From Crassostrea angulata (lineage: Eukaryota): 64,000 nt of DNA. Under the pieces are notes generated by a model, which was not told the DNA's origin, ran no database searches, and saw nothing but the letters and a program-made list of their open reading frames with translations. The position numbers and the translations under genes are program-made. Below are positions 12,875-57,758 of the stretch, piece after piece (the stretch's first letter is position 1; each line of letters begins with the position of its first letter). The stretch is taken from NCBI RefSeq assembly GCF_025612915.1, contig NC_069115.1, forward strand, positions 25,791,757 to 25,855,756. The letters are read 5' to 3'.

Positions 12875-12890
12875 TAGCTCACCTGAGCCA

Positions 12891-12922
<32 letters not shown>

Positions 12923-13631
12923 GTCCGTTGTCTGTTGTTGTCGGCGTAGTCATCGTCGTCGTCGTTGTCGTCATCATAAACTTTTCACATTTTCATCTTC
13001 TAATCAAGAACCACTGGGCAGATCTTAAACAAATTTGGCACAAAGCACCACTAGGTAAAGGGGATTCAAGTTTGTTCAAATCATGGTCCCCGGGGGTAGG
13101 GTGGGGCCACAATTGGGGGATAAATTTTTATACAGGAATATATGGAGAAAATCTTTAAAAATCTTCTTTTTAAAGACTATTTGGCCAGAAAAGCTTAAAC
13201 TTGTGTAGAGGCATCATCGGGTAGTGTAAATTCAAGTTTTCAAAATCACAGTCCCTAGTGGTAGGGCGGGGCTGTGATGGCGGTTTTACATAGGAATATA
13301 TCGAGAAAATTTTTAAAAATATTCTGGGAAAGTTTTGCAGATTTATGTTTGATTGAACCATGATTCCCTAGAGAAAAGTGGGGCCATGAAATGAGGGGGG
13401 GGGGGGGGGGGGTATATAGGAATAGAGAAAAATCTTCTTACAGGTACAACAAAAGGGGCTTGGTATTTACCAAAAAAAAGGAGGTGGATAAAAATTGGCA
13501 GATTTTCAAATTTTTTAAGAAAGATCTACTGTACTAAGTTGTCAAGATATTTTGATACTGTAATGCTAATTTGATCTGAATTTAGGCAATTGTTGCTCAG
13601 GTGAGCGATGTGGCCCTTGGGCCTCTTGTTT
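12875..13631 (+). mobile_element. Family A composite element (pearl or Helentron-like): head, (GTCR)n-like tract, about 4 satellite monomers, then a tail. It is inserted into a family B element.
   Basis: Head is tagctcacctgagccaaaggctcaagtgagcttttctgatcac. Tail is ...gttgctcaggtgagcgatgtggcccttgggcctcttgtt. Empty paralogous sites at 3161-3166 and 41241-41246 show a precise insertion without target-site duplication. Confidence 0.7.
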
Positions 13632-13831
13632 GAGAACTGCAATACTCAACATGTGATATGATTATAAAATCATCCTATTAGAAAAGGGACTAATAACTAT
13701 AAACATAAGAATATCCAGGGGGGAAAATGGATTTTATTTATACAGGATCTACATGTATTATTGTACCGGTACATTGTCCAGATTGTTTGTATTATGACTC
13801 CATTAAACTGATTTTATCATACCTATTGTAC

Positions 13832-13863
<32 letters not shown>

Positions 13864-14299
13864 ATTTTAGTATCTGTTGTATTTGGTAACACTGAATGTC
13901 TGACAACCAAACATAACACCGTCAAACCAACAGACTTATCTTACAGGTACACAGAAGACAGCAACTCGCGTGTAAATTCGGAATTTCGGATTTATCACGA
14001 TTGCGCTAACATTACAAAAAATATAACTTTAAATTCAAACTCTGCATTGCTGCCATTATATATGCACAGTAAAGTTGTTAAGTACAGGCATGTAGCATCG
14101 TTTTTTAAAGGAAATAGGACAGAATAATCTGAAATCAGGACAAGCAAAAAGAAGAGACTCCTTATAAATTCAATTTTTTTTAGGTCACCCTGAATTTACT
14201 ATTGCTGTCCGTTTTCGTCCGCCGTCATGCATTAACAATTTACATTTCTAACTTCTTCTTAAAAACTACAAGGCTGATTGTTACCATTTTTGGTGTAAG

Positions 14300-15280
14300 G
14301 CATCTCTTTGGTAAGAGGAATCTAAATTGTGAAATTCATGTCTCTACCACCCCCAGGGCACCACATGTGGGGCCAAATATGCAAAAAAATAGCCAAATTT
14401 TCAAAAATCTTCTTCTCTACTCCCACACATGTGAGGAAAAAAGTGGTTACATAGTTATGATGTCCATGAATCCCTTAAACCAAAATTGTGAAATTCATGG
14501 CCCCTGGGTCAGGGGTTTTGGCTTTAGGGTGGGGCCAATATGCCCATATTGTAAAAATGTATTAAATCTTCTTCTCTACTACCAAAGATATTTGTTAAAA
14601 ACTAAATACATGATTATGATGTCCATGAAGCCTTCTACTTAAATTGTGAAATTCATGACCCTGTGTCAGGGGTTCAGGCTCGAGGAGGGGGGGGGGGGGA
14701 TATGGCCATATAGTAAAAATGTATTAATTTTTAGAAAATCTCTTCTCTACTCCCATATATATTTGTTAAAAACTAAATGCATGGTTATGATGAACATGAG
14801 GCCCTCTACCAAATTGTGAAATGCATGACCCCTGGGTCAGGGGTTCAGGCTAAAGGGTGGGGCCAATATGGCCATATAGTAAAAATGTGTTTAATCTTAG
14901 AAAATCTTCTCTACTCCCATATAACTCCACTAACTCCTCTACCTCAATTGGGAAATTCATGGCCCTTGGGTCAGGGGTTTAGAACATGAGGGGGGGGGGG
15001 CAATATGGCAATATAGTGTTAATGCATATGTTTTAAAATGTTCTTCTTTATTCTCACACATCTGTATAAAAAACTAACTTATAATTACGTTTACCAGGAA
15101 GTTCTAGTCTACTGAAATTTTAATTTTCATGTCCCCTGGAGTATGGGTTTTGACTCTAGGGCAGGGCGGAAATGGATGTAGAGCGCTAAGAGGTGTTGAT
15201 GCATATAATGTTAAAAAATTATCTTCTTTACTCCCACACACCTGAAAGGAAAACTGAATTCATGGTTTTGTAGACCAGAT
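14300..15280 (+). repeat. Family E satellite of about 7 units of roughly 150 bp, distantly related to family A
   Basis: Repeated attgtgaaattcatg.cccctgggtcaggggtt...gggtggggccaatatggccatat.gtaaaaatg...cttctctactccca. Confidence 0.75.
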
Positions 15281-16199
15281 CTTTAAGTTTTTCGCCAAAA
15301 TTATAGGTTTTACAGTTATTTTTGAAAGATTGCAGGCAGAGAGGTGGTCGTCATTACAAATTTATAATTTTTCTAATCCAGAATGAAACTTAATTAGTTA
15401 GATGCATATATGAGACTCCGCGAAAAGTTTGTGTATGGGTTATATGCTACGCAGGTGACTGTTAAGGCCAATATGCCTCTTGTTTTACTTGTAAACTTAA
15501 AAATTTTACCATTGGAGGAGAGGTTTGGAATTTGACTGCGTTGATTTAACTATAAACAAAGTGGCCAGCTATTGTAAGACAAGTTGCTGTCCTTTAAAAA
15601 AGGACTGCAATACGTGGACCATATGCATGTGTTTCCAACGAAAACGTGAAAGCCTTAAGATTATCAGATATTCCACCGACTCTAGCCGCCTACTTTTAAC
15701 CACTAAATTTGTACGTTGTATTACGTAAATGTATAACCCTGACTTTTTATCTCAGAATTTATAGGGTGCATACTACTAAAATAATTATGATCTATATTAA
15801 TGAAGATTGCATGTAAAGTATCAGGCATTCGGCGAATTCTACTATTTGCCCACACATTACGTTTCGCACTACTTTGTTTTATAAAACTATGCAGTGACAG
15901 CTTTGTGTAAATTAATTTCATATTTTGATGCATTTTTCTTGAAATTTTAACTTCTATACAGTGCCATAATTATTCAATCATCTATTATATACAGTTACAT
16001 AATTATTCAATCATACTTAAGTGCTTAAAAATTTTTAATCGGGAAGTACTTTAGCCTCGCCTACTATAAAAGTAAAGTTAAGCTACTTGTGTTATTCGGA
16101 AAACAACAAAACATTGCAAATTATGCTATTTGATGCCTGTTGTAGTAACGGCATAACATTAACTTATTTCATAATACTGACAGTTTATATCACAAGCCG

Positions 16200-19100
16200 A
16201 ACATTTCTTTAAAAGGAATTCTTTGTTTCTGTACTGTTTACCGACAACCTTACATTTACAGGTTTGAAAACATCATTCTCAAATATTGTAATATCAACAC
16301 CGTGTGAGAATGGATCGGTCTTGGACATTCTCAACCTCAGGACAAAACAATTACATCCAAAGCTAACATCAAAATTTTTTTTGAAAATGTACAGAGTTTG
16401 CTTTTTTACAAGTAATTTCACCACATCTAAGAAACCCGAAAAAAAGGCACAGGAGAACATACATTTCAACATCAGATCTAGAAATGGAGAAAAAGCTCCA
16501 TTGTCAAGTTCATGCCACAGTTGTTTCAATATACTGGCAATAATTAGGTAATCTGTTGTTAGAGACATTGTTTTGAGACTTTTTCACCCCTCGCAAAACA
16601 TACTGTAGCTGGTTAAAGTTATTCATAAAATCTCCATGACCTGCTCTAATATAGTAAAACCATTACTAAATAACCTGCTAAATACAATTTGATAGTGTCA
16701 TACTTGAGTTTTAAAACAGATTTACAATGAGTGACAAAATACATTTTAAGCAAAGTTTCATTTACTATTGGAAGACAGTAGGATTAAAACACAATTCCAC
16801 TCATAGAAATGAATGTCAGAAAACATTGTAACGCTGAACTGTAGGCCCTCTTGGTTGAACTGCTTAAGGATGCATCCCATAATTGGTTTAACTGCTCCCT
16901 CAGTCCTTCATTAGCTGCGAATGTTCCAGGCATTGTGTTGGCATCAGGTCGGCTTCTGGTGCCAGGGTTCGAAACTTCTACATCTGGTACGAGAGAGAGA
17001 GTCAGCAATAGTGTTCTTGACGCCATCAATATGAACAGCATGAATGATATAATGGTTACAGGCTGCATGAAAGGTTTAAGTTCTCATTAGTTTCATTATG
17101 CTTTTAACTTTTGAGCATCCTTTCCTAATAATGTCAACAGTTGTTTGGTTGTCACAATGAAAAAGAATGAGTTTCCTTGGCCAAGTATCACCCCACAGAA
17201 GACAGGCCATAACGATAGGATATAGCTCAAAAAGAACCATCGATGTGTTTTCCTTGGAAATGTTGTCAGGGAAATCTCCTTGAAACCACTTATTTTGGTA
17301 AAAGCCTCCAAAGGATGTAAGGGTTGCGTCTGTAAACAACTGCATATCCGCAGCCTCTGTCATGTTATCGTCGATGAAAAAGGACACTCCATTCCAGCTT
17401 TTTAAGAAATCTGACCACATAGCAAGGTTGTCCCTACACATACTGTCTAAGTGGACATGGAAATGAAGCGGCTCCTCTGTGGTTGATGAGGCTATCAGGT
17501 GAGAAATGAAAGATCGACCTGGCAGAACAACTCTGCAAGCAAAATTGAGGTGTCCCAGCAAATTGAGCAATTCTCTCTTTGTACATGATTTGCGTGTTTT
17601 GAAGGAATTACCGATAGATAAGATATGATCAATCTTCTCCGACAGTAAATGGGCTTCCATGTTCCAGGAGTCTAATATTATCCCAAGGTATTCTAGTTCT
17701 GTACAAGGTCCTTTGGTTTTCTTCTCCGATAGAGGAATCCCGAGGGTTCTAAATACCAGTATCCCCAGGAGTCTCTCCATCACTTTATGAGCATCATCAA
17801 ATAGTGGGACCACAACTAGGAAGTCATCCAACAGGTGCAGCACATTTGGTATGATATCTTGTATTTTTTCTCTGCAATCCAACACACAGCGGAAGACAGG
17901 GCATCAAAGATCTTTGGACTTGATCTGCTTCCAAAGACAAGGCGCTTGAAAAAATAGTATTTATCATCCCACTTAATTCCATGATATGGCCATAACTCTT
18001 ATGATATAGGCATGATATTGAAGGCATCAGTAATGTCGGTTTTAATAAGTGATGCTCCTTTCCCGCATAATTTAATTATAGTCTAATAGCATAATGGACC
18101 ATACAAGTAACCTAGGTTTAGTTCTTAGTTTACGATCTCTGTAACGCTGTCCGAGTTTAATGAAGCTGACTTTAGATTTTTGCATTCCAGAGAATTCTTT
18201 GGAAGATCCTGAAAGCCAGTATGAAAGCCAAAACGTAAACCATTCATAAGATATTCTGTAAATTGGGTGTCGGGATGATGTTGTAGAAGATTTTGAAGAC
18301 TGTCTATGTTGATGGGAGTTGTTACTTATTATCGAAACTGGATGTTACATCTTTTTGAAAGCCCCATTTGTGTGGGGCTGCTGGGATTTTTTGAGCTGCA
18401 ATTGTGTTAAGAGTGGTCTCCTCTGCAACTGATGCAGATGTGGGCGTTCTTGCATCTAGGTATGTGACAGCCTCTGAAGCCATTGAAGTTGTTACATATT
18501 TCTCTACCTTCATGAAATTCTCTCCGACGTCCATAAAAATCCATGTCCCCATTTCTCTTATCCCTAACTTTGTCGGTAATAGGGCAAAAGCCTGTAGAGT
18601 GCAGCGTACTGTTGCAGGTTGCACATGACTGCGGTCTGGCATTCGCAAACAAATTACAAAATAAAGTGTTATTCCACACAGACTAGTCAATGAGAATGTT
18701 ATTATACTTAAGATGTGAAGCGGCCATAAGACTGAATTGACGATGATATTCGTAGAACCCATTGCCTGTGTAGCCGGTAGCCATGTCAATGATATCCCTA
18801 TCATACAAATCTAACTCCTGTCTTCTTTGGGGATATGCTTGACACATTATATTTTTGTAAATTCCGAAAGCTTGAATGAACTCACCGATGTTTAGCAACT
18901 TCTGCAGTCGTTTATCCGGCTTCTTGTCATCTTTTTCGTCAGGGGGAGAGAAATATGGTATTAACAAGGATGCTAAATTGACATCCTTACCTGATGTAAT
19001 TTGGAGGCACAGATGAGGCGAGATGGTCTCTACCAGAAGGAGAGATTCTGCTGCGAATCCGAATCTCGTCCTCTTCAATTCCGGGCCCTGTGTTGGCAAT

Positions 19101-21959: not shown

Positions 21960-24900
21960 TTATGGTTCTATGCACTATTAAAACTGCCAAACAACAGCAA
22001 CTACGATTACTACTACGTTTAAAACGGACTGAAACAAAAACTTCTGGAACCATTTATTTAAATTTTAAAAAAGGAAAAGAAAGTGTTAGTGTTTTAATTG
22101 ATCAAACCTTTCCAGGTACTCCCCTGGAAGAGTTATTTCCCTCTCCAAACACCATTGCCAAATCTGACTTGCAAGACTTATCAACTTCTTTGATTTTGTA
22201 CCCCCAATGTTGTTTATGTATGCTATCGCTACTTTGTTGTGCGATTGCAATAGTGCGTGCTTTTTTAAAATTTTCGACTGAAAACAATGAATTGCTAAAA
22301 ATGCTGCTTTGAGCTCTAACTCGTTTATGTGCTGATCTCTTTCGTTTTCCATCCAAAGACCGCCCGTTTTTGTATTTTGACAAATTGCACCTCAACCTCT
22401 CAGGCTTGCATCTGATTTGACAATAATGTTTGGTTGGGGACGGACTAAAGCTCTCCCGTTCCATTTGCTTAGTTTTGAAGACCACCATATTAGTTCTTGT
22501 TTCGAATCCTCGTCTAATTGTACATGATGCTCGTAATTCCCTCCGGTATGCAGGGCTCTTGTTTTTAATAACTTGAGACTACTGTAATGAAGAGGTGAGG
22601 GTAGAACCCCTTGATTTGTAGCTGTCAGACGTCCTATTATTAGGGCCCCGCAAGGATTTGCGGGTGCCCTATAGTAATCACTCTGTCCGTCCGTCCTTCT
22701 GTCCGTCCGTCCGTCTGTCACTCTTCCGTCCACAAATTTCCTGTTTTTTTCTAATAACTTTTTTTATGGTTGCCCAATCAAGTTCAAATTTGGTATGGTA
22801 GTTCAGTAGGCAGAAATACATATTTTGATGCTAAGTTTGGTTCTCTATGTCTTCTGGTTTGGAGCTGGGGTGGTGGGGTAGATTCATAACTATGCATAAG
22901 AAGAATGGGCAAAGAGAGATAACTGCTGAGAATGAATGGGCAAAGAGAGATAACTGCTGAGAATGTTACCATTGTATACATGGAAGGCTGTGCAATATTT
23001 GTCCTTTGGGATTAATTAACCTTCCACAGGAAGAAAATCCTAAGCTTTATCTTTATCTGTCACATTGAGATTAATTACTGCACTGCCTGTGTCTGCAAAT
23101 GAACTTTGTTTTGAAGTTAAGGTCAATTTTGAATGATGTGTAGTATTGTGTACATTCTTTGAAATATGGATTTGAAATATAATATTCATATTTTTGGGGG
23201 TTAAAATACCGTACACAATGATTTATGATAGTTTTATTGAATAGAGGCAAAGCCTAGGTATCATTGCATTGGTATCAATTCTTTGTTTTTTTAACAAATT
23301 TTATTTCATCCCATGTTAACCCACTTTATCCCGTGGATATGACTCATTGGATATTTTTTTGATATTCCAGAGTTGTGACTTTACAATGGGATTTGCCTAG
23401 GCATAATGAAGTAAAAATAATGTAGAGTTTTATAAACAGTGTAAACATTGATTGCGGTGTATAAAATATGGGATAAATAGAATCTCATGATTTGTAGTAT
23501 AATATGATTTTTATCCAACTTGTGTGTTTTATCCCCTCACTAAGGCTCAAGAAAAAAACACTTTAATTGTTGGATGAAAATCATATCCAACTACAAATCA
23601 CGAGATCCTATATATTCCAGTTCTTTACATCTTCTGCCGGGCATTTATTTTTCATCATTGTTAATATAAAGAGGATGGAATTCAAAGTTTTTTTCACTTC
23701 TCTATATTAATTGTCATAGCGGGGCCCTTCCTGACTGGTCAGTTTTCTAGTTTGGGCTAGATCCCGAGCAGAGACAGACTGACGACTCACAAGATCTAAG
23801 CAATTCTGCTTTATCTTTATCACCTTTTCTTTTGGGAGAGAGAGGGTCATTGTTTCTGAGTTTACAGTGAATCCCAGAAATTCAGTTACATGTGAAGGGA
23901 CTAGAACTAACTTTTCCTGATTGATCAAAAACCCTAGATTCTCTAAGAGATAGACAGCTGTTGACAGATCTGATTGAATGCCTGTGAGAGGTAAACACAC
24001 GTGGTGCTATTGCAATTCCAAATGGAAGGGATGTATTAAACTCCATTATTTTGTTTTTCCAAAAAAATTTCAGAAATTTTCGAAATTTCTCTGCCACGTT
24101 TATTGTCAGGTACGCATCTTTTAAATCTAGTTTTACTAACCAATCTCCCTCTTCCATGAGATCTCTTAACAGCTGTATCCCCTCCATTTTGAAATGCTCG
24201 TAAGGGAGAAAACTGTTCAGATTTTTTAGATTTATTACAGGCCTTAACTCGCCCCCCTTCTTCATTACCAAAAATACGTTGCTGTAAAAGGAATCGCTTG
24301 TGGGAGTTGTCTCCCGTACCGCATTTTTCAACACTTAATTCTCTATTTCGGAATCTATCAAAATCTGTTTCTCTGATTTGAATTTCGATGGAATCGGAAT
24401 TTTTCCCTTGAAAGGATTTGATAATATGGGAATTTCTATCCCTTTGATTGATTGAAGGATCCAAGGATCCCGTGTAATTACTTTCCAATTCTGATAGAAA
24501 TGTTTTACACGTCCCCCAACTGGCACTGACTGGGGAATTTCTACAGCATTGAAAAACAGGAATTTTGATAGATTCCGATCGATCTCTGATAATTCTACCC
24601 GTTTTAGACTCACCTGATTCACTGAGTGACTGATTTCTTGGGAGGTACTGTATATTTCTGGTTTGCTCCCTGACCCTTGAATTGTGGGTACTTTGTGTAT
24701 CTCTGATTCTGAGTGAACTGCCTCCTGTCTGTCTGTCTGCGACCCCCATACTGGAGGCTTGATGAGGGTCTCTGTAGAAAAAACTGGCGGTTTCTGTCAG
24801 AAAACTGTCTTGTTTGTGACCAAACTTTCTTATCACTGCCATTAAACAATAGCTGTTTTAATTCTTTATTATCTTTGTTATCTTTCGCTAATTGTTTAAG

Positions 24901-37934: not shown

Positions 37935-37950
37935 TAGCTCACCTGAGCCA

Positions 37951-37982
<32 letters not shown>

Positions 37983-38089
37983 GTCCGTTGTCTGTCGTCG
38001 TTGTCGTTGTAAACTTTTCACATTTTAATCTTCTTCTCAAGAACCACTGGGCAGATTTCAACCAAATTTGGCATAAAGCACCACTAGGT

Positions 38090-38127
<38 letters not shown>

Positions 38128-39901
38128 CCCTCTTTAAAAGGGAGATAATTGAGAATTATTGAAAATTTGTTGGTACTTTTCAAAAATCTTCTTTTAAAAA
38201 ACTATTCGGCCTGAAAAGCTTAAACTTGTGTGGAGGCATCCTCAGGTAGTGTACATTCAAGTTTGTTCAAATCATGGTCCCAGGGGGTAGGGAAGGGCTA
38301 CAAGAGGGGGATCAAGTTTTACATAGGAATATATAGACAAAATCTTTAAAAATCTTCTTTTCAAAAACTATTTGGCCAGAAAAGCTCAAAGTAAAGTGGA
38401 AGCATCCTCAGATAGTGAAGATTCAAGTTTGTTCAAATCATGGTCCCCAGGGGTAGGGTGGGGCCACAATTAGGGGATCAAGTTTTACATAGGAATATAT
38501 AGAGAAAATCTTTAAAAATCTTCTTCTCAAAAATTATTAGGCCAGAAAAGCTCAAATTAAAGTGGAAGCATCCTCAGGTAGTGTAGATTCAAGTTTGTTC
38601 AAATCATGGTCCCCGGGGATATGGTGGGGCCACAATGGGGGAATGGATTTTTACATAGGAATATATAGAGAAAATCTTCTTCTCAAAAACTATTCAAATT
38701 AAAATGAAAGCATCTTCAGGTAGTGTAGATTCAAGTTTGTTCAGATCATTGTGCCTGGGGGTAGGGTGGGGCCACAATAGGGGGGATCAATTAAGTTTTA
38801 CATAGGAATATATAGAGGAAATCTTTAAAAATCTTCTTCTCAAAAACTTTTAGGTCAGCAAAGCTCAAATTTGAGTGGAAGCATGGATTTTTACATAGGA
38901 ATATATAGAGAAAATCTTCTTCTCAAAAACTATTCAAATTAAAATGAAAGCATCTTCAGATAGTATAGATTCAAGTTTGTTCAAATCATTGTCCCTAGGG
39001 GTAGGGTGGGGCCACAATTAGGGGATAAAGTTTTATACAACAATATATAGAGAAAATCTTTAAAAATAATTCTTTTAAAAATTATTTGCCCAAGAAAGCT
39101 CAAATTGGCGTGTAACCATCCTCAGATAATGTAGTTTCAAGTCTGTTCAAATCATGGTCCCTGGGGGTAGGGCGGGGCCACAATGGGGGATAAATTTTTA
39201 TAAATATAGAAAATCTTTAAAAATCTTCTCAAAACTATTAGGCCAGGAAAGCCCAAATTTGAGTGGAAGCATCCCCAGATCGTATAGATTCAAGTTTGTT
39301 TAAATAATAGTCCAGGGGTATGGTGAGACCACAATGGGGGATGAATTTTTACATAGGAATATATAGAGAAAATCTTTAAAAATCTTCTTTTTAAAGACTA
39401 TTTGGCCAGAAAAGCTCAACTTGTGTAGAGGCATCCTCGGGTAGTGTAAATTCAAGTTTGTAAAATCACAGTCCCTAGTGATAGGGCGGGGCCGTGATGG
39501 CGGTTTGAATTTTTACATAGGAATATATAGAAAAAATCTTTAAAAATATTCTGTGAAAGTTTTCGGTCCAAAACTCAGTATTTAGTGTGAAAGCACAGGT
39601 TATGCAAATTTAAGTTTAATGAAACCATTATTCCCTAGAGAAAAGTGGGACCACGAAATGGAGGTGGGGGGGGGGGGTATATAGGAATAGAGAAAAATCT
39701 TCTTACAGGTACAACAACAAAAGGGGCTTGGTATTTACCCAAAAAAAAAAGAGGTTGATAAAAATTGGCAGATTTTCATTTTTTTTTTTAGCAAGATCTT
39801 AGTACTTAGTTGTCAAGATATTTTGATTCTGTAATGCTAATTTGATTAGAATTAAGGCAATTGTTGCTCAGGTGAGCGATGTGGCCCCTGGGCCTCTTGT
39901 T
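37935..39901 (+). mobile_element. Family A composite element: head, about 10 monomers, tail
   Basis: Same head (37935) and tail (39860-39901) as the 12875 copy. The terminal monomer variants are shared with the copies at 12875 and 56215. Confidence 0.7.
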
Positions 39902-40142
39902 GTTTCTCATTTGATGAATTAGACTTAACATCTTTGATTCCCCAATCTTGGTTAAAAAGCAGTTCATAGTTAAATAAACTTGTACCAAAAATAATTTGAA
40001 AAATTGTTAATTCATACTTCATCTTATTTGGATTCTTTTTTTAGTTTAGTTGTTCTAAAAGTCATTAAGATTTTTATTAATCCATACTTAGAATAATTTA
40101 TGTTTTGTTCAGTCGTATCATGAATCATTCGTTTTTTTAGCT

Positions 40143-40239
40143 CACCTTAGCTGAAAGCTCCAGTGAGCTTCTCTGATCACTTTTTGTCTGGGGTCCATCG
40201 TTCTGTCTGTCTGTCCATCTGTCTGTATACTTTTTAGCC

Positions 40240-40277
<38 letters not shown>

Positions 40278-41060
40278 TTTTTGTCCTGTGTCCATCTGTC
40301 TGTCCGTCCGTCCATCTGTCTGTCTGGCTGTAAACTTTTTACATTTTCAACTTCTTCTCCAGAACCAATTGACCAATTTCAATTAAACTTGACACAAAGC
40401 ATCATTTGGTAAAGGGGATTCAAGTTTGTTAAAATGAAGGCCTTTCAAGGGGACATAATAAGGATTTATTAAAAATTTGTTGATATTTTTCATAAATCTT
40501 CTTCTCATAAACCATTTGGCAAGAAAAGCTGAAACTTGTTTTGAAGCATCATCAGATAGTGTAGATTCAAGTTTGTTCAAATCATGATCCCCGTGGGTAA
40601 GGTGGGGCCACAATGGGGGTCAAGGTTTTACATAGAATACACTGAGTAAATCTTTAAAAATCTTCTCCTCAGAAACCAATCAGCATGGAAAGCTGAAACT
40701 TGTAAGGAAGCATTCTGAGTTAGTGTAGATTTGAAGTTGTGAAAATCATGTCCCCTGGGGATAGGATGGGGCGAAAATGGGGAATCAAACTTAAACTTAG
40801 GAATATATATATTGTAAATCTTTTAAAATCTTCTTCTCAAACACCATTTGGCCAGAAAAACTAATTTATAAAAACTTGTGTGGAAGCATCCTCAATAAGT
40901 ACAAATTTAAGTTTTCTAAAAACCACTAAAGCTTCCCTAGAAAAGCTGTAACTTTACTGACAGCAACCTCAGATAGATTCAACTTTTTTCATATCAAAAT
41001 CTTGAGGAGTAGGGTGGGGCCACATTGAGTATCCAATTTTACAAAGAAAAATATTTTAAT
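40143..41060 (+). mobile_element. Family A element with a duplicated head (40143 and 40243), GTCY-rich tracts and about 4 monomers. No tail.
   Basis: Two tandem heads, ttagctcaccttagctgaaagctccagtgagc and tagcccacctgagctgaaagctcaagtgagc. Confidence 0.6.
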
Positions 41061-41149
41061 TCATAAAAACTAAAATGTTATCATATATGGTTTTATTTAT
41101 ATGCACGCATTTTAACATATTGCTGATTCTTTCAAATTGTTTAGATTTT

Positions 41150-42003
41150 GGCCCCTGGAGAATTAATGGCCCACACAAGGGGTTCAGAGTTTGATATAGG
41201 TTTATACTAGTATCCCATATATAAACATATGTTTTGGATCTTGTTGAGAACTGTAATGCTCAACATGTGATATGACTATATGTAACCCAGGCAGTAGACA
41301 GAACACCAGTGAGGGTCATACAATGTATTTATTCAATATATACAAAAAACCTGAAACATACAACATTGACTCATTTGACAATTATCTCAGAATACGGTAC
41401 AATAACTTGGATAAAGATTATTTAATATATAGCATGGAATTGTTAAATTATAAACATAGAATATATTTATAAGTAATAAATTACACAAGAATTACCAGAC
41501 ACCGGCAGCTAATCGCAGACAAAGCTTGCGCTTAATCTTCATACATACAGGTCTGTCCCCTCTCAAGGCAAGACAAAGTGTGCGCGGGCCTGGTTAGTTA
41601 GGCGGGAAGATTGGTTAGTAGAAGTTAAATTTAGAATGTTGTCAGACAGGTCAAACGGGTAGTCGAATGGTCAAATAAAAATAAACAATTACATGTGGAC
41701 AATCTCACCTGGAGATGTAAATAAAACACACACACATGCACACAGAAACAATTACGTTTACAAATAGACAAACATTATATATTAATTACTTACACTGGTT
41801 ACATATAGAATCATCCTGTTAGAAAAGGGACTTGATTATAAACATAAGAATCTCAGGGTGAAAAAAATTTGGACTTTTATTTATACAAGAGCTCCATGTA
41901 TTATTATACATTGTCCAGATAGTTTGTATTATGACTCCTTTAAACTGATTTTATCATACATATTGCTGCTCAGGTGAGCGATGTGGTCCATGGGCCTCTT
42001 GTT
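41150..42003 (+). mobile_element. Family B element interrupted by a nested TIR MITE at 41281-41803
   Basis: 5' part at 41150-41280, 3' part at 41806-42003 ending ctcaggtgagcgatgtggtccatgggcctcttgtt. Confidence 0.6.
41281..41803. mobile_element. MITE of about 520 bp with TIRs TGTAACCCAGG and CACTGGTTACA, flanked by a TA or TATA target-site duplication
   Basis: Flanks are gacta-TA|tgtaacc and ggttaca|TA-tagaatc. Uninterrupted copies of the host element read gactaaaaaatc or gattataaaatc. Confidence 0.55.
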
Positions 42004-45155: not shown

Positions 45156-46613
45156 TCAGTTAGAAAATTTAACATATTTTTTACTAATTTTAAATCTGCC
45201 ACATTCAAAGTCATCAACTACTCTTGGTAAAAGTTTGTTGAAGTAAAAACAACATAGTCTTGAAATAGCTGCTTCACAAAACTGTTGGTCATATTGTACA
45301 TCAATGACCTTGTATTCATTAGTTGTCCAAATAACAAGTTTGCACAGCTGCATATGTGTTACATGCAAAGTTAACTGCATTTGAAGGTAATAGCCCCTTG
45401 AACTGTTATGCTTAAAATATAATGTACCATTTTGCAAGGATTTCACAACATCATATTTACCAATTGTAAATAAGCTGTCAAGTGTTTGATCATTCTTAAG
45501 TATTGGACATTTAATTTCCAAAAGACATTTTGAACCATCAGCATTGGTTACTATTCCATCTGGGGAAACACTTAGCCAGGGCTCTTCACCTTCTTGTCCA
45601 TGTCTAGTAAATTTGTTTGATGTGAAGGAAGGGTACATATGTTCTCTTAAGAAGTTATCACTATTTGTAGTGTCACGAACGGGAACCTTGTGGTGCTCAG
45701 TACTGCCAGTTATTCTTATTTTTCTACTGTTGTGCCACAATTCAGATTCACTTTGTGAAATTGTTGCCATCGATAACGATTGAATTTGGGCATCATTAAG
45801 TTTAATGTACATGTACCTGTTATAAAACGCACAACACTTTTCACAAGATAGTTCACCTGTATGCTCAGTACGAGGCTCGGATGAAGATTCGAAAAGAGAT
45901 TTGTTTATATTTGCGTGCATAGATTTACTTAAAAGTGAATTTTCTAAAAGAAATAATTCTTTAAGTTCTGAGTTTTCCACAAAATATTTAAAAGATTGAT
46001 ATGATACAAACATTGGGAAGATAGATTTTGTATTTTGTGGTTTTTCAGTATTGTTGTTAACCTCACTGCCATATTTAGGTTTTTTAAAGTCCATCTCTTC
46101 AAGAACACCTGGTTCAAGGTTTCTTGTCGCACCCTTATTCCACTGCATCTGCTCATCTGTACAAGATTTTCCCGTAAAACCTAACCTTACAGCATGCTCA
46201 ATTTTCCACAAAAGTGCGCCTACATGACTGCACGTTTTACTGTTCCCAGCCATACATGAACATCCCCCGTTTAGAATTGTGCCGATCATATCACAGAATA
46301 CCCATGCATTGTGAAACTCTGAATTTATTTTTTGTGACGGGCGCACTTCAGATTTCAGAATAACTGTATTGTGAATAACAAAATGAAGAATTTTCCCGAC
46401 AGAACCGCTTTTAAAATAATTGTAACTGTCCAATGATTTGTAATTTTTCATTTTTTCGCCGTCACATGCTCTACTTAAAATCAAATAATTGTAGATATCG
46501 CCATATTCTACTTGTGGCCACTCACGAATGTCATCCTTCCATTCACCGGTTTTGACGTCTTTTTGGGAAGAAATCATTCGATCAGTATCTTTTTTGCATT
46601 GACTCTTATCCAT
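45156..46613 (-). CDS. Intronless 485-aa ORF encoding a SWIM-type zinc finger plus a YqaJ/lambda-exonuclease-like PD-(D/E)xK nuclease
   Basis: SWIM signature CSCMAGNSKTCSHVGALLW (CxCxnCxH). YqaJ-type motifs ITGSTEHH, WLSVSPDGIV and KCLLEIKCP (motif ExK). ATG at 46611-46613 and stop at 45156. No internal stop codons over 1458 nt in an AT-rich region. TTTATT on the + strand at about 44930 would be the minus-strand poly(A) signal. Confidence 0.7.
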   Translation of the reverse strand: MDKSQCKKDTDRMISSQKDVKTGEWKDDIREWPQVEYGDIYNYLILSRACDGEKMKNYKSLDSYNYFKSGSVGKILHFVIHNTVILKSEVRPSQKINSEFHNAWVFCDMIGTILNGGCSCMAGNSKTCSHVGALLWKIEHAVRLGFTGKSCTDEQMQWNKGATRNLEPGVLEEMDFKKPKYGSEVNNNTEKPQNTKSIFPMFVSYQSFKYFVENSELKELFLLENSLLSKSMHANINKSLFESSSEPRTEHTGELSCEKCCAFYNRYMYIKLNDAQIQSLSMATISQSESELWHNSRKIRITGSTEHHKVPVRDTTNSDNFLREHMYPSFTSNKFTRHGQEGEEPWLSVSPDGIVTNADGSKCLLEIKCPILKNDQTLDSLFTIGKYDVVKSLQNGTLYFKHNSSRGYYLQMQLTLHVTHMQLCKLVIWTTNEYKVIDVQYDQQFCEAAISRLCCFYFNKLLPRVVDDFECGRFKISKKYVKFSN

Positions 46614-46800: not shown

Positions 46801-48310
46801 TATTGATCAAAGGAGTCACATGCAGATGACAGAAATTTTCTTTGGATTTTTAATACTCTTCACTTATTTATAAAATATCTTTGAATCATATTCCTAATAT
46901 TTTAAGGGCAATTTAATACGATTATTACTACTACACGTTACATATTTTATTTAAAAACACGCAGTGAAAAAGTGCTAGGGAGGAGGTCCTAGGAACAGCC
47001 GCATTGATCTTTTAACAATAAACATTTGAGGCAATACACATCGTTTTGACTGGAACTAGGACTTGAAAATGACAAAGTTTTAAAACTTTTTCAATTTGAA
47101 GTTGTACTTTCATGATCAGTGCAAGAAAGGTAGGTATTTCTGATCTGATAATTTACTGATGACATTTGTGGTATATTTAAGAAATAAGGTATGAGTTATC
47201 GTGAATGTTGCAGAATAAGCTCTGAGGTTGAGAATGTTGTTTTGAAATATAAAAGCCGAGGTGATGTGTATCGATCAAAGGAATCACGTGCAGACGACAG
47301 AATTTTTTCTTGGGATTTTAATACTCTTCACTTATTTTTAAAATACCTTTGAGTTATATTCCTAATATTTTAAGGGCAATTTACGATTATTACTACTACA
47401 CGTTATATATTTTATTTTAAAAACACGCAGTGAAAAAGTGCTAGGGAGGTCATAGAAACAGCCGCATTGATCTCTTAAAAATGAACATTTGAGGCAATAC
47501 ACTTCGTTTTGACTGGAACAAACACGTGAAATTGACATGGTTTTAAATCTTTTTATGGTTTGAAGTTGTACTTTCATGATCAATGCGAGACAAAAAGGTA
47601 TTTCTGATCTGATAATTTACTGATGACGTTCGTGGTATAATTAAGAAATAAAGTACGAGTTGTCTTGAATGTTGCAGAATAACCTCCGAGGTCGAGAAAT
47701 GTTGCTTTGAAATATAAAAGCCGAGGCGTTAGCCGAGGCTTTTATATTTCAAACAACATTTCGAGACCGAGGAGGTTATCCTGCAACATTCACGAAAACA
47801 AGAACTTTATTTCTATTCTACTAAAATGTAACAGCCCAGTATTTCTATACAGTTCGTTTCTCCTATAGAGAGACGATGTAGGTCATTTTGAAGGCTGTTC
47901 CGTGTAACCCCAACGGTTTTGTTAGTAATGTTTACATGTGTATCGATCAAAGGAATCGCATGCAGACGACAGAATTTATCTTTGGATTTTTAATTCTCTT
48001 CACTTAATTGTAAAATATCTGTGAGTTATATTCCTAATATTTTAAAGGCAATTTTATACGATTATTACTACTACACGTTATATATTTTATGTAAAAACAC
48101 GCAGTGATAATGTGCTGGGGAGGTCCTAGGAACAGCCGCATTGATCTCTTAAAATTATCATTAGAGGCAATACACATCGTTTTGACTGGAACTAACACGT
48201 GAAACTGACATGGTTTTAAAACATTTTAAAGTTTGAAGTTGTACTTTCATGATCAGTGCGAGACAAATAAGTATTTCTTATCTGATAATTTACTGATGAC
48301 GTTCGTGGTA
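46801..48310 (+). repeat. Tandem repeat of three ~470 bp units. The third unit is separated by a ~200 bp spacer that contains a palindrome.
   Basis: Units start at 46801, 47272 and 47941. Each begins tcgatcaaaggartcac and ends gtgaatgttgcagaataa...aaataaaagccgagg. Confidence 0.8.
47667..47795. repeat. Head-to-head palindrome formed by the 3' end motif of the 470 bp unit. Arms are 47667-47727 and 47735-47795.
   Basis: The reverse complement of the right arm matches the left arm at about 85% identity. The centre is gccgaggc gtta gccgaggc. Confidence 0.75.
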
Positions 48311-49074: not shown

Positions 49075-49160
49075 TTCAGATGTATATCGTCATAGCTTAG
49101 TGGTTAAAGTATCTGGATTGTGAACCACAAGGTCATGAGTTCGAATCCTCCTGGGGCAAT
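49075..49160 (+). repeat. tRNA-derived SINE-like segment
   Basis: tcgtcaTAGCTTAGTGGTTAAAGTatctggattgtgaaccacaaggtcatgaGTTCGAATCCtcctgggg. An A box and a canonical B box are present. No canonical anticodon stem or T stem is evident. Confidence 0.35.
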
Positions 49161-53059: not shown

Positions 53060-53137
53060 CAGCTTCTCTGAAGCAGCTTCTCTGATCAAACTTGTCTGTC
53101 GTCCATGTGTCTGTACAAACTGTTCACATTTTCAACA

Positions 53138-53171
<34 letters not shown>

Positions 53172-53511
53172 AAGCACAAAGAATCCTTAGGCAAAGGGGA
53201 TTCAAAATTGTGAAATTAAAGGACCACAACATTTATCAAGGGAAGATCATTAGGAATTATTGAAAAATTTGAGAATTTTTTTAAAATCGTCTTTAAAAAA
53301 ACCCCATTTTGCCAGGAGAGCTGAAACTTTTATTAAGCATTCTCGGGTCGATTCAAAGCTTTGAAAATCATGACACCCCCCCCCCCCCCCTCAAGCAAGA
53401 TCTACTGTACTTATTTGTCAAGATATTTTGATTTTGAGACTGTAATGCTAATTTGATCAGAGTTAGAGATACTGTTGCTCAGGTGAGCGATGTGGCCACT
53501 GTGCCTCTTGT
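53060..53511 (+). mobile_element. Compact family A element (degenerate head, one monomer, tail), 250 bp upstream of the MVP exon at 53763
   Basis: Tail is gttgctcaggtgagcgatgtggccactgtgcctcttgtt. A C(15) homopolymer lies at 53385-53401. Confidence 0.55.
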
Positions 53512-53762
53512 TTCTATACTTATTCTATTTCTCCCAAATGGTATTTTATCAGCATAAATATTATAAGGAACTTCTTTCGTATGTTTATTTGAAGCTGATG
53601 ACTGATTTAGCATATCCCAGTAAAGCAAATAACTGATGATATCTGATTATGGTTTGGAATGGATATACGTAACAAAAGTGTCAACAAAAAAATTAAGAGA
53701 TTTATGTATTAAGAAAATAATAGAGAGCATCAATTATGTTTTGATATTAAAGTTCAATAGAG

Positions 53763-53979
53763 GCAGCAGCATCGCATGAGGCAGCCAGAAATGAACAAAT
53801 AGCCAGGGGTGAATTGGAGAGGCAAAAACTCTATAATGAAAAAGAATCTGAAAAAGAACGATGTAAACTCTTGGAACTTCAAGCCGTCACTGCTGCAGTG
53901 GAGTCTTCTGGACAGGCTAAAGCAGAGGCCCAAGCTCAGGCCGAGCGCATTATCATTGAGTGTGAGAGCGAGATTGAAG
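53763..53979 (+). CDS. MVP: MVP exon. Encodes [72 protein letters not shown], corresponding to human [68 protein letters not shown]
   Basis: The acceptor AG is ambiguous between 53759-60 and 53761-62. The donor is G|GTGAGT, giving phase 1. Strong match to the coiled-coil region of MVP. Confidence 0.8.
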
Positions 53980-54183
53980 GTGAGTTCATCCAAAGCTTAT
54001 TCATAGAAAATATGATGGTTTTAATACACTTACAAATGGTTTGAACGCAAGTTCATACAACTTATTAGGTTCTTACCATATAAAATAGGATAAATAAGAT
54101 ATGATTGTATTGTCATTTAAATCGATATCAAATTGTAAAGGTTTAAACTTCATTTTACTATCGTGTGACTTTGTCTTTTATAG

Positions 54184-54248
54184 CTGCAAAACTGAGGGCA
54201 GAAGCAGCAGGAATAGAGCATAATGCTCAGTTAACCACACAGGAAGCG
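54184..54248 (+). CDS. MVP: MVP exon. Encodes AKLRAEAAGIEHNAQLTTQEA, corresponding to human AKLKAQALAIETEAELQRVQK
   Basis: Acceptor cttttatag and donor GTGCGT. Phase 1 entering the exon, phase 0 leaving it. Confidence 0.75.
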
Positions 54249-55715
54249 GTGCGTTTTTTTAAGCAATTGGTCTTTTTAGCAATTGGTCTTCGTCCGTCGT
54301 CATGCGTTGTGCGTTAATAATACATTTTCAACTTCTCCTTGAAAACTACAAGGCCAATTGTTACCATTTGGTGTGACGCATCTCTATGGTAAGAAGAAGC
54401 TAAATTGCGTTCCCCTCATTTTTTGACTTAAAAGACTTTTAGTGTTCAGTATAAACTTCGTAAAATTATAATGCCTAAAAATGTGCATTTTAGATTATTT
54501 TGTACAAGTTCAACAGAGGGCACTATCCTTCCAAGTACACTTTATTTAACCAAATAAAATACAAAAATTCATGTATACAAAAGCAGACAAAGTGACTATA
54601 TTTTGTCTTATATTTAGTCAAAAAATATTTAAACTTCAAATATACAATAAATGATAGCATTTTCGTACTTAAGAATTACGTTTACTCAGAATGCGAAAAA
54701 ATCCCACTGATGAAAATGAAATACCATATGTTGTATGTTATAGAAATTTGTAGTGTTATTTTTAACCTAAAAACTTTTTGAGTTAATGGCCTTTGTATTA
54801 TATTTTTTTGATAATTGAAAAAGAATCCTTTAAAATTTTACAATGTGATTAAGGTTTTCTTAATTGTGAAAATAGTACATACAAATTAACTCTTTAAAAT
54901 TGAAATACTGTTAATAAAGGGCAGTGTGGCTAATTAGATACCAAGAATTATAGTTAGGTTTTGAGAACCAATTTTTAAAAAATATCCCAGTCGGAATTTT
55001 TTCTATCAATTTTGCGAACTCCACCAACATTTGATTTACCCGGTAATTTAACAAAAACTGAATGATGATAACACTAAAACATTCATAGTCATGAACTAAA
55101 TATATTGTCCTTATTTTGCTGGCATGAAATTAATACAAGGTAAATGATCAAAGTTTTTAAACATTTTAACCAGGTTTTCCTAAAGAAAAATCCATTTATT
55201 GAAATGGTGAAAATGCAATATGTGCCTCACAATTATCCAAAAGATGGTACTAGATAAAACCAAAAGAAAATATTTAAACATTATATGTGACTATTGACTA
55301 ACAGATAAAATCTTCACTTAAATTTCCTCTGTTTTACCAAACGATTATTTTTTAATTCCATAGAATAATAAAGATATCAAATGTTATGGCGAAAGATTTT
55401 CATTTGAAGAATACTGTTGTTTAAAAAAAATTTAGCTCATGATATTTAACTTTACTTCAATCGGAATTTGGCACTCAAATCCTGAGTAAACAATGTGAGA
55501 GAGAATGCATGTACATGTAATTGGAGTTTTCAATATCTTTATTTGTTATACGGTGCTCTTAAGTTCAATTAAATTATTTATTGGCAAATTGTGTCATGAG
55601 TTTTTTATTTTTGTCTTTTTTCTCGAAAGACTTTTTGAATTATGCAAATATAATTTTTAACATCTCTGATTATTTTATTTTGTAAAATTATGTGTTAAAC
55701 CTTTTTGTTCTACAG

Positions 55716-55796
55716 CTACGAAAACAAGAACTAGATTATGCGAGAAATATGAACAGACTAGAAATTCATAAGGAAAGGGAAATGACAAATATTGAG
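55716..55796 (+). CDS. MVP: MVP exon. Encodes LRKQELDYARNMNRLEIHKEREMTNIE, corresponding to human [27 protein letters not shown]
   Basis: Acceptor tgttctacag and donor GTTTGA. Exon is 27 codons. Confidence 0.75.
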
Positions 55797-56015
55797 GTTT
55801 GAATAAATAAGTAAAAATAGAGCAAGATAAATTTCATATATTTTTCAATCTTCAATTTGTAATCAATTGTATTAGAAGGTTTTGAGGAATAAAGTGCAGA
55901 AAACAATTACACGGAATTATTATGTATATTCCAAATAACATTTTGTGACAACTTAATTCCTTTAAACCATGGTCATGAAACAATAACGAAGGTACAACAA
56001 ATTCATTTAATATAG

Positions 56016-56096
56016 GTAAAGAAGTTTAAGGATATGATTTCAACTATAGGAGGAAATGTATTGGCTGCCATTGCAACTGCAGGTCCAGCAAATCAG
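56016..56096 (+). CDS. MVP: MVP exon. Encodes VKKFKDMISTIGGNVLAAIATAGPANQ, corresponding to human [27 protein letters not shown]
   Basis: Acceptor ttaatatag and donor GTAAAA. Exon is 27 codons. Confidence 0.85.
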
Positions 56097-56214
56097 GTAA
56101 AAATGATTATAATTTTTTCATTTCTCTGGAGTTTTCAGAACCATAAGAAGCATTAAAGCTAAACAACATTACACTGTACATTAGAAGTATATATATTTAA
56201 GGTAATGCCATTTA

Positions 56215-56231
56215 TTAGGTCACCTGAGCCA

Positions 56232-56263
<32 letters not shown>

Positions 56264-56291
56264 GTCCGATGTCTGTCGTTGTCGTCATCGT

Positions 56292-56322
<31 letters not shown>

Positions 56323-57758
56323 AAGAACCGCTGGGCAAATTTCAACCAAATTTGGCACAAAGCACCACTAGGTAAAGGGGATTCCAGTTTGTTTAAATGA
56401 AGGGCCACGGAAAATTATTGAAAATTTGTTGGTATTTTTCAAAAATCTTCTTCTCAAAAACTATTCGGCCTGAAAAGCTTAAACTTGTGTGGAGGCATTC
56501 TCAGGTAGTGTAGATTCAAATTTGTTCAAATCATGGTCACCGCGGGTAGGGAGGGGCCACAGGGGAGGGTCAAGTTTTACATATGAATATATAGAGAAAA
56601 TCTTTTAAAAATCTTCTTCTCAAAAACTATTAGGCCAGGAAAGCTCAAATTAAAATGGAAGCATCTTCAGGTAGTGTAGATTCAAGTTTGTTCAAATCAT
56701 GGTCTCTGTGGGTAGGGTGGGGCCACAATAGGGGGGATCAAGTTTAACATAGGAATTTATAGAGGAAATCTTTAAAAATCTTCTTCTCAAAAACTATTAG
56801 GCCAGGAAAGCTTATATTTGAGTGGAAGCATCCTCAGATAGTGTAGTTTTAAGTTTGTTACAATCATGGTCACCGGGGGTAGCGTGGGGACACAATTGGG
56901 GGATCAAGTTTTACATAGGAATATTTAGAGGAAATCTTTAAAAATCTTTTTCTCAAAAACAAGAAAGCTCAAATTGGCGTGTAACCATCCTCAGATAATG
57001 TAGATTCAAGTCTGTTCAAATCATGGTACCTGGGGGTAGGGCGGGGCCACAATGGGGGATAGTTTTTATACATAGAGAAAATCTTTAAAAATCTTCTATT
57101 AGGCCAGGAAAGCCCACATTTGAGTTGAAGCATCCCCAGATCGTATAGATTCAAGTTTGTTTAAATAACAGTCCAGGGGTACAGTAAGGCCACAATGGGG
57201 GATGAATTTTTACATAGATATATAGAGAAAATCTTTAAAAATCTTCTTTTTAAAGACTATTTGGCCAGAAAAGCTTAAACTTGTGTAGAGGCATCCTCGG
57301 GTAGTGTAAATTCAAGTGTGCAAAATCAGTCCCTAGTGATAGGGCAGGGCTTTGATGGCGGTTTGAACTTTTACATAGGAATATATAGAGAAAATCTTTA
57401 AAAATATTCTGGGAAAGTTTTCGGTCCAAAACTCAGTACTTAGTGTGAAAGCACAGGTTATGCAGATTTAAGTTTGATGAAACCATGATTCCTTAGAGAA
57501 AAGTGGGGCCACGAAATTTTGGAGGGGGGGGGGGGGTACATAGGAATAGAGAAAAATCTTCTTACAGGTAGAATAACAAAAGGGGCTTGGTATTTACCAA
57601 AAAAAAAAGAGGTTGATAAAAATTGGCAGATTTTCAATTTGTTTTAGTAAGATATACTGTACTTAGTTGTCAAGATATTTTGATACTGAAATGCTAATTT
57701 GATTTAGAATTAAGGCAATTGTTGCTCAGGTGAGCTATGTGGCCCCTGGGCCTCTTGT
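56215..57758 (+). mobile_element. Family A composite element (head, about 7 monomers, tail) inside the last MVP intron
   Basis: Head is taggtcacctgagccaaaggctcaagtgagc. Tail ends ggcccctgggcctcttgtt at 57758. Confidence 0.7.

What the first reader, a model, noticed from the sequence alone, without database searches (positions are those of the whole stretch)
12875..57758. Three paralogous composite elements carry the same head, tail and tail-proximal monomer variants but different monomer counts (about 4, 10 and 7)
The copies at 12875-13631, 37935-39901 and 56215-57758 share distinctive terminal monomer variants. Examples are ...gtgtagaggcatcctcgggtagtgtaaattcaagt...gatagggcggggccgtgatggcggttt... 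and the variant ...ttcggtccaaaactcagtatttagtgtgaaagcacaggttatgcaaatttaag... that lies closest to the tail. They differ only in the number of internal monomers. So the arrays expand or contract inside the mobile element, or during its replication, while the ends stay fixed. This is a direct mechanism for seeding satellite arrays at new loci.
Basis: seen in the sequence. Interest (0 to 1): 0.55.

Follow-up and report, generated by a model that had tools for sequence, protein, structure and literature searches.

The report
Known oyster Helentron elements carrying satellite repeats

Summary
Copies A (12875-13631), B (37935-39901) and C (56215-57759) share a head, a roughly 200-bp tail, and position-specific 166-bp monomer variants. 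They carry about 3, 10 and 7 monomer units.

The architecture matches a non-autonomous Helentron (HINE). It has a 5' subterminal inverted repeat plus a complementary inverted repeat, a GTC/GTT microsatellite, a central tandem array, a 3' subterminal repeat and a short palindrome. It has no ORF. Copy A inserted in a T run without a target-site duplication, as shown by a paralogous empty site in the window.

Monomers are 92-95% identical to published Crassostrea gigas arrays. Papers from 2016 and 2020 already describe this family. [quoted passage not shown] They report the same 39-bp monomer remnant plus 54-bp spacer in the left flank, and they give genome-wide monomer-number statistics.

Added here:
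- B and C monomers are collinear orthologues.
- Length changes fall in the most homogeneous, head-proximal part of the array.
- B holds a recent B-specific 77-bp perfect tract.
- A arose by an in-register fusion of the head remnant with an array monomer.

Satellite "seeding" is not shown in this window. Verdict: real, already known, low interest.

The parts
12875..13631 (+). Copy A, the shortest. It is nested in the tail of another element of the same superfamily (X, 11481-13866).
   Evidence: Its boundaries are fixed by paralogous empty sites at 3140-3200 and 41215-41275.
12876..12906 (+). Copy A: 5' subterminal inverted repeat AGCTCACCTGAGC plus complementary inverted repeat GCTCAAGTGAGCT, forming a hairpin.
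   Evidence: Motif search found 20 matches against 0.5 expected. DNA fold -12.3 kcal/mol, z = -4.0.
12995..13155 (+). Copy A: head monomer remnant M0 fused in register to a normal array monomer at the shared GATTCAAGTTTGTTCAAAT. The spacer and all upstream monomers are missing.
13156..13312 (+). Copy A: last full monomer, orthologue of B9 and C6 (95%).
13313..13435 (+). Copy A: degenerate tail-proximal unit with a 40-bp deletion.
13595..13623 (+). Copy A: 3' subterminal repeat GCTCAGGTGAGC followed by the palindrome GGCCCttGGGCC.
37935..39901 (+). Copy B, the longest.
37936..37966 (+). Copy B: 5' subterminal repeat plus inverted-repeat hairpin.
   Evidence: DNA fold z = -4.8.
38027..38181 (+). 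Copy B: degenerate monomer remnant M0 (38027-38127) and the 54-bp non-monomer spacer (38128-38181).
   Evidence: nhmmer 22.5 bits and alignment. It matches the published '39 bp monomer segment + 54 bp spacer' (PMC5139131).
38182..39540 (+). Copy B: array of 9 monomers (B1-B9). B4 and B5 are shortened.
38643..38719 (+). Source copy of the B-specific 77-bp tract. It spans the B3/B4 junction and carries two small deletions.
38883..38959 (+). Second, identical copy of the 77-bp tract. At its left edge it joins out of register, monomer position ~59 to ~131.
   Evidence: It is absent from C.
39541..39700 (+). Copy B: degenerate tail-proximal monomer. It is 95% identical to C's and about 75% to its neighbour.
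39701..39901 (+). Copy B: non-repetitive tail with the 3' subterminal repeat (39866-39878) and the palindrome GGCCCctGGGCC (39883-39894).
56215..57759 (+). Copy C. It lies in sense orientation inside the last intron (56109-57926) of a + strand host gene.
56441..57398 (+). Copy C: array of 6 monomers (C1-C6).
57399..57559 (+). Copy C: degenerate tail-proximal monomer.
57724..57752 (+). Copy C: 3' subterminal repeat plus palindrome.

Best explanation
A, B and C are three old, separately inserted copies of one subfamily of non-autonomous Helentron. This is the HINE type, matching Cg_HINE group 1 and the Repbase Helitron-N2_CGi-like elements of the Pacific oyster.

Each copy has five sections:
- a 5' end with a subterminal inverted repeat, its complementary inverted repeat and a short GTC/GTT microsatellite;
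- a decayed monomer remnant and a spacer;
- a central array of 166-bp Cg170-type satellite monomers;
- a decayed last monomer;
- a roughly 200-bp tail ending in the 3' subterminal repeat and a small palindrome.

The copies encode nothing. By inference from the family, they are copied to new T-rich sites by the Rep/helicase/endonuclease of an autonomous Helentron through rolling-circle transposition.

Their common ancestor already carried an ordered array with position-specific monomers. Later length changes came from homology-driven unequal exchange, slippage or break repair within the array. These events concentrate where neighbouring monomers are most alike, which is the head-proximal and central units.

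The tail-proximal units and both decayed edge units have diverged too far to recombine easily, so they persist. Losing the termini would also end mobility, so the ends look fixed.

Shown: structure, orthology, insertion without target duplication, and a recent B-specific event. Inferred: the transposition mechanism, and the timing (in place or in the master lineage) of most length changes.
For: Structure:
- The subterminal repeat motif occurs 20 times in the window against 0.5 expected.
- The 5' hairpin folds with z = -3.1 to -4.8.
- The 3' subterminal repeat and palindrome are conserved in all tails.
- TRF detects the microsatellite.
- B has no ORF over 60 aa, and the window ORFs scanned against Pfam show no Rep or helicase domain.

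Transposition rather than duplication:
- The flanks of B and C have no other match in the window.
- A interrupts a sequence that is continuous in two paralogous elements. GGATCTTTTT|GAGAACTGC is the empty state, the insertion lies in a T run, and there is no target-site duplication.
- A fourth copy's tail on an unrelated contig ends at the same ...GGGCCTCTTGTT.

Family identity:
- Monomers are 92% identical to a published C. gigas CL1 monomer.
- The tail-proximal variant is 93-95% identical to oyster.v9 scaffold11:379124-379495.
- The monomer remnant plus 54-bp spacer is exactly as published.

Array history:
- Orthology is collinear.
- Neighbour identity falls from 87-92% (B1 to B6) to 82-86% (B6-B9) and 75% (B9-Bt).
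- All three B-only blocks lie in the homogeneous zone.
- The 77-bp tract has 0 mismatches, against 3-5% private change per copy.
- A's fusion sits at a 19-bp stretch shared by M0 and the monomers.
Against: - No autonomous partner was found, and the 2020 paper also failed to link one.
- The 3' palindrome is too short to stand out thermodynamically (z = -0.4 to -0.7).
- The source organism was not identified directly. The host-gene search returned only unnamed Logan proteins.
- With three copies the direction of most length changes (gain in B or loss in C) cannot be polarised.
- A published locus carries the 'fixed' tail-proximal variant duplicated 2.25 times, so the ends are not strictly immune.
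Confidence: 0.85

Rival explanations
1. Array length changes arise during rolling-circle transposition itself. The copying strand would switch template or slip between monomers, so each new insertion is born with a different monomer number and the arrays are stable afterwards.
For: - It is compatible with fixed ends and variable interiors.
- Single-stranded intermediates would favour slippage between 85-92% identical monomers (inference).
- Out-of-register junctions such as 38882/38883 could be template switches.
Against: - The 77-bp tract in B is perfect, while B has about 5% private substitutions. At least this event is much younger than B's split from A and C.
- Nothing in the window ties any change to an insertion event.
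- Unequal exchange in place is the standard behaviour of tandem arrays (established knowledge, cited in PMC5139131).
Confidence: 0.2
2. Independent array growth. Each locus received a one-monomer element and expanded its own array.
For: Internal B monomers B2, B3, B4 and B6 are more similar to each other (90-92%) than to most C monomers.
Against: - Position-specific orthologues are 90-95% identical and in the same order at both ends of the arrays.
- Seven of seven C units map to B units in increasing order.
Confidence: 0.03
3. The three copies are products of segmental duplication of host DNA, not of transposition.
For: All copies are on the same strand within 45 kb.
Against: - Similarity stops exactly at the element ends.
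- The flanks of B and C match nothing else in the window.
- A has a clean paralogous empty site.
Confidence: 0.02
4. The differing monomer counts are assembly errors, meaning collapse or expansion of tandem repeats.
For: Tandem arrays are error-prone in assemblies (stated in PMC7492417).
Against: - Monomers within each array differ by 8-25% and carry unique variants, so mis-assembly is unlikely.
- A's short form has a specific fusion junction.
Confidence: 0.05

Closest known systems
Cg_HINE group 1 elements of Crassostrea gigas (Cg_HINE_1/_2; Repbase Helitron-N2_CGi / N2d_CGi), Vojvoda Zeljko et al. 2020 (PMC7492417) and Satovic et al. 2016 (PMC5139131)
   Same: - The left-flank modules: subterminal repeat, inverted repeat and GTC-type microsatellite.
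- Cg170-type monomers of 166-167 bp in fixed orientation.
- The right-flank subterminal repeat plus palindrome.
- A T-rich target without a target-site duplication.
- A variable internal monomer number.
- A 39-bp monomer remnant plus 54-bp spacer in the left flank.
- Monomer variants 92-95% identical to published arrays.
   Different: Nothing in kind. The published work did not describe the ordered, position-specific monomer variants or the identity gradient along the array. I could not compare with the Repbase consensus or decide between Cg_HINE_1 and _2.
DINE-1 / DINE-TR1 and other HINEs of Drosophila, mites and mosquitoes (PMC2374699, PMC4067079)
   Same: The same module order, including a (CCGT/CTGT)-type microsatellite, central repeats whose number varies within a species, a 3' stem-loop, a TT target and no target-site duplication.
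   Different: The repeat sequences are unrelated. In Drosophila the autonomous partners are known.
pearl elements (C. virginica, Anadara), DTC84 (Donax trunculus), MgE (Mytilus), as cited in PMC7492417 and PMC5139131
   Same: Bivalve elements with up to about 6 central repeats of about 160 bp. The repeats are related to the BIV160/Cg170 satellites.
   Different: They are from other species and have other flanks. They were originally classed as MITEs. No sequence comparison was made here.

Membership tests
HINE (non-autonomous Helentron) | An 11-15 bp subterminal inverted repeat a few bases from the 5' end, with a complementary copy near the 3' end | tested here: met
   AGCTCACCTGAGC lies 1-2 nt from the 5' end and GCTCAGGTGAGC about 23 nt from the 3' end in A, B and C. 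C has one mismatch at the 5' end.
HINE (non-autonomous Helentron) | A 5' inverted repeat complementary to the 5' subterminal repeat (DINE-1/Cg_HINE type) | tested here: met
   GCTCAAGTGAGCT lies 5 nt downstream. The hairpin folds at -10 to -12.3 kcal/mol, z = -3.1 to -4.8.
HINE (non-autonomous Helentron) | A short palindrome near the 3' terminus, after the 3' subterminal repeat | tested here: met
   GGCCCnnGGGCC is conserved in all three copies and in other tails in the window. Its folding energy is not distinguishable from shuffles, so it is met by sequence only.
HINE (non-autonomous Helentron) | Insertion in T-rich/TT sites without a target-site duplication | tested here: met
   Paralogous empty sites for copy A read GGATCTTTTT|GAGAAC. 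The element lies inside the T run and nothing is duplicated. B and C are flanked by T(T) on both sides, but no empty site was available for them.
HINE (non-autonomous Helentron) | No coding capacity | tested here: met
   No ORF over 60 aa in B.
HINE (non-autonomous Helentron) | An autonomous Helentron partner (Rep/helicase/endonuclease) sharing the termini | not testable with these tools
   The window ORFs scanned against Pfam show no Rep or helicase domain. No oyster genome collection was available. The 2020 paper found no partner either.
Cg_HINE group 1 / Cg170 satellite family | Central monomers of about 166 bp belonging to the Cg170/HindIII family | tested here: met
   Period 166. 92% identity to a published CL1 monomer and 93-95% to the scaffold11 array.
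Cg_HINE group 1 / Cg170 satellite family | Flanks matching the Helitron-N2_CGi / N2d_CGi consensus | not testable with these tools
   Repbase sequences and Figure 3 of PMC7492417 are not held, and Table S2 is illegible. Indirect support comes from the 39-bp remnant plus 54-bp spacer described for these elements.
Canonical Helitron | 5'-TC ... CTRR-3' termini and insertion between A and T | tested here: not met
   The element reads (T)AGCTC ... CTCTTGTT and sits in a T run.
MITE (cut-and-paste TIR element) | Terminal inverted repeats flanked by a target-site duplication | tested here: not met
   The repeats are subterminal and no duplication is seen at A's filled versus empty site.

The most novel reading that the evidence does not exclude
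The ordered, position-specific monomer variants act as an inherited barcode of each Helentron lineage. Array remodelling would be coupled to rolling-circle copying, through template switching between monomers on the single-stranded intermediate. Each transposition would then produce a new array length, and the barcodes would allow a genealogy of satellite-carrying elements to be reconstructed. The same-strand bias of about 15 family members in this window might reflect the same strand-specific copying or integration process.
Probability: 0.12. Interest if true: 0.45.

Novelty: already known. Interest (0 to 1): 0.15.

Why it matters
These elements are a documented route by which satellite-type repeats spread through gene-rich DNA in oysters. 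In this window the monomer family covers 18.5% of 64 kb, and one copy sits in an intron.

The finding is a clear small-scale illustration of the published model. It adds a modest detail: monomer order is inherited, and length changes are confined to the most homogeneous part of the array. It does not open a new question.

Tried and rejected
- Organism identification through the host gene. A 62-aa exon translation hit only unnamed Logan proteins, and Pfam gave nothing for the spliced product. My impression that it is flotillin-like is unconfirmed, so I dropped it.
- Searching paper full texts for the subterminal repeat sequence gave only unrelated primer matches.
- Looking for the exact B and C arrays in the 2020 paper's Table S1 gave no hit. 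The stored file is cut.
- A metagenome scan for more copies returned one 1.2-kb contig with only a tail. It is useful for the 3' boundary but not for monomer counts.
- I tested whether B's short 142-bp monomer variant is shared with the 141-bp variant of the long array at about 60300. The deletions differ, so there is no link.
- I tested whether the 62916/62936 orientation switch is a fold-back artefact. The arms are only about 90% complementary, so it is not a perfect palindrome.
- A simple 240-bp tandem duplication model for B was rejected. Identity is perfect for 77 bp and then drops to ordinary monomer-to-monomer level.
- Rfam found nothing in the window.
Full report
**What is there.** The window is AT-rich eukaryotic DNA (GC about 35%) and is full of a roughly 166-bp tandem repeat. 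A monomer HMM finds 85 hits covering 18.5% of the window.

Using B (37935-39901) as reference, BLAST gives these identities:
- Head: 92% in C, 82% in A.
- 261-bp tail: 91% in C, 89% in A.

Many other elements in the window share only the first ~170 bp of head or the last ~42 bp of tail. A, B and C therefore form one subfamily.

**Anatomy.** Each copy has the following sections in order:
1. AGCTCACCTGAGC, one or two bases from the 5' end. Five bases later comes its near-complement GCTCAAGTGAGCT. Together they form a strong hairpin (-10 to -12.3 kcal/mol, z = -3.1 to -4.8).
2. A short GTC/GTT microsatellite.
3. A decayed monomer remnant, M0 (about 20 bits to the monomer HMM).
4. A 54-bp spacer in B.
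5. The array itself.
6. A decayed last monomer (29-39 bits).
7. About 200 bp of unique tail.
8. GCTCAGGTGAGC, which is the complement of the 5' motif.
9. GGCCCnnGGGCC and the ending CTCTTGTT.

The motif occurs 20 times in the window against 0.5 expected by chance. B has no ORF over 60 aa, and the window ORFs scanned against Pfam show no Rep or helicase domain. Rfam finds nothing.

**Transposition, not duplication.** The flanks of B and C match nothing else in the window.

Copy A lies inside the tail of another element, X (11481-13866). Joining A's two flanks gives a sequence that is continuous in two paralogous elements, at 3107-3396 and at 41181-41280 / 41804-42003, with about 84% identity.
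- At the junction, the empty sites read GGATCTTTTTGAGAAC.
- The filled site reads GGATCTTTTT-[A]-TGAGAAC.

A therefore inserted in a T run with no target-site duplication. A metagenome contig (L001) carries a fourth copy's tail. It ends at the same GGGCCTCTTGTT and is followed by unrelated DNA.

**Monomer counts and orthology.** The HMM segmentation gives:
- B: nine array units plus the decayed unit.
- C: six plus one.
- A: two plus a truncated decayed unit, so about 3 rather than about 4.

Pairwise identities show positional orthologues:

| Orthologous units | Identity |
|---|---|
| A1 = B9 = C6 | 95% |
| Decayed tail-proximal units | 91-95% |
| B8 = C5 | 95% |
| B7 = C4 | 93% |
| B1 = C1 | 91% |
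| M0 of B and C | 95% |

In a window-wide BLAST these partners are the top hits, 3 to 15 points above any other monomer. Half-monomer comparison and global alignment show that C2 matches B3's 5' half (95%) and B4's 3' part. C3 matches B5's 5' part and B6's 3' end (sequence).

The order of best partners is strictly increasing for all seven C units. By my own calculation, the chance of that ordering at random is about 1/7!.

**How the copies differ.** Relative to C, B has three extra blocks: 166 bp (38253-38418), 147 bp (38612-38758) and 69 bp (38879-38947). All three lie in the head-proximal half of the array. The first two are in monomer register.

The third block is tied to a 77-bp tract (38643-38719) that recurs perfectly at 38883-38959. 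Its left junction joins monomer position ~59 to ~131. The tract carries two small B-specific deletions and occurs nowhere else in the window. After the 77 identical bases there are 5 mismatches in the next 59. This is a short templated copy rather than a 240-bp tandem duplication.

In a three-way alignment of the last full monomer's 3' part, the decayed unit and the tail, each copy has 3.3-5.1% private substitutions. A perfect 77-bp repeat must therefore be much younger than the split of the copies.

Copy A is a deletion derivative. Its M0 runs straight into a normal monomer at the 19-bp stretch GATTCAAGTTTGTTCAAAT, which M0 and the monomers share. It lacks the spacer that B, C and the more distant elements X and Y all have.

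**Why the ends look fixed.** Neighbour identity along B falls toward the tail:
- B1 through B6: 87-92%.
- B6-B7: 86%.
- B7-B8: 83%.
- B8-B9: 82%.
- B9 to the decayed unit: about 75%.

The length changes lie where neighbours are most alike. That is what homology-dependent unequal exchange or slippage would produce (inference). Edge repeats that escape homogenisation are a known feature of tandem arrays (discussed in PMC5139131).

The ends are not absolutely protected. In the published C. gigas assembly, scaffold11:379124-379495 carries the tail-proximal variant itself in 2.25 tandem copies.

**Comparison with the literature.** The modules match the definition of HINEs, the non-autonomous Helentrons (PMC4067079). 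They match the Cg_HINE elements of C. gigas specifically (PMC7492417).

Arrays listed in that paper's Table S1 include a monomer 92% identical to B2 and the A1/B9/C6 variant at 93-95%.

Satovic et al. [quoted passage not shown] They also described a 39-bp monomer segment in the left flank separated from the array by a 54-bp spacer. That is exactly the arrangement at B 38098-38181.

Variable repeat number is also noted for DINE-1 (PMC2374699).

The canonical Helitron and MITE definitions are not met.

**What is not shown.** No autonomous partner was found. The species was not identified directly, because only unnamed proteins matched the host exons. The match to C. gigas arrays equals the divergence among the window's own copies, so C. 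gigas or a very close relative is likely.

Whether most length changes occurred in place or in master copies cannot be decided from three copies.

Satellite seeding is not demonstrated here. The long array from 59772 onward has more than 25 monomers and 330/500-bp higher-order periods. It begins abruptly inside the conserved GTTTGTTCAAAT box with no element head.

**Verdict.** The finding is already known, so interest is low.

Noticed in passing
window 1-64000 (heads 11481, 12876, 26333, 37936, 40139, 40236, 53092, 56217; tails 3355, 13589, 13825, 27012, 39860, 41962, 53470, 57718): All of the roughly 15 elements or arrays of this family in the window lie on the + strand. Only the array segment 62936-64000 is inverted. 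The 2020 paper reports both orientations genome-wide, so this local same-strand run is unexplained. Gene-orientation selection, local rolling-circle hopping and chance are all possible.
   Followed up: partly
window 59772-64000: A long Cg170-type array of more than 25 monomers, with 330- and 500-bp higher-order periods. It has no element head at its left edge and starts inside the conserved box GTTTGTTCAAAT. That is the same box where the head remnant M0 ends and where copy A's fusion lies. Orientation flips at 62916/62936, and the arms are only about 90% complementary.
   Followed up: partly
window 11481-13866: A nested structure. Element X has a head, M0, a spacer, 1.2 monomers and a tail end. 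It is interrupted by a roughly 860-bp element with perfect 24-bp terminal inverted repeats beginning with TTAA (11916-11939 / 12751-12774), and also by copy A.
   Followed up: partly
window 40134-40323: Two element heads in tandem (97-bp period, 88% identity). A 64-bp solo head plus microsatellite sits directly upstream of the full element Y (40236-42003).
   Followed up: no
window 55692-58031: Copy C fills 1.5 kb of the 1.8-kb last intron of a + strand host gene. A spliced product in the Logan collection (P0001, 97 aa) matches three exons: 55692-55799 (97% identity), about 56007-56108, and 57927-58031 (100% identity). It has no Pfam domain.
   Followed up: partly
window 7539-8922 and 9802-9998: Another array of about 8 monomers with a 168-170 bp period. 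It resembles the published CL1 type (GTGAAAATCATGA variant). No recognisable head or tail was detected next to it.
   Followed up: no
window 46801-47726: A 464-bp unit repeated twice in tandem (87% identity). It is unrelated to the 166-bp family.
   Followed up: no
window 910-2331, 4347-5519, 23882-24334 (-), 45156-46613 (-): Other mobile-element ORFs: two reverse-transcriptase fragments, a GIY-YIG domain ORF and a YqaJ-like recombinase-domain ORF. The window is largely made of transposon remains.
   Followed up: partly
L001 1-320 (JACSEI010003781.1): A metagenome contig carries the tail of a further copy of the same subfamily. This is presumably oyster host DNA in a metagenome sample.
   Followed up: partly
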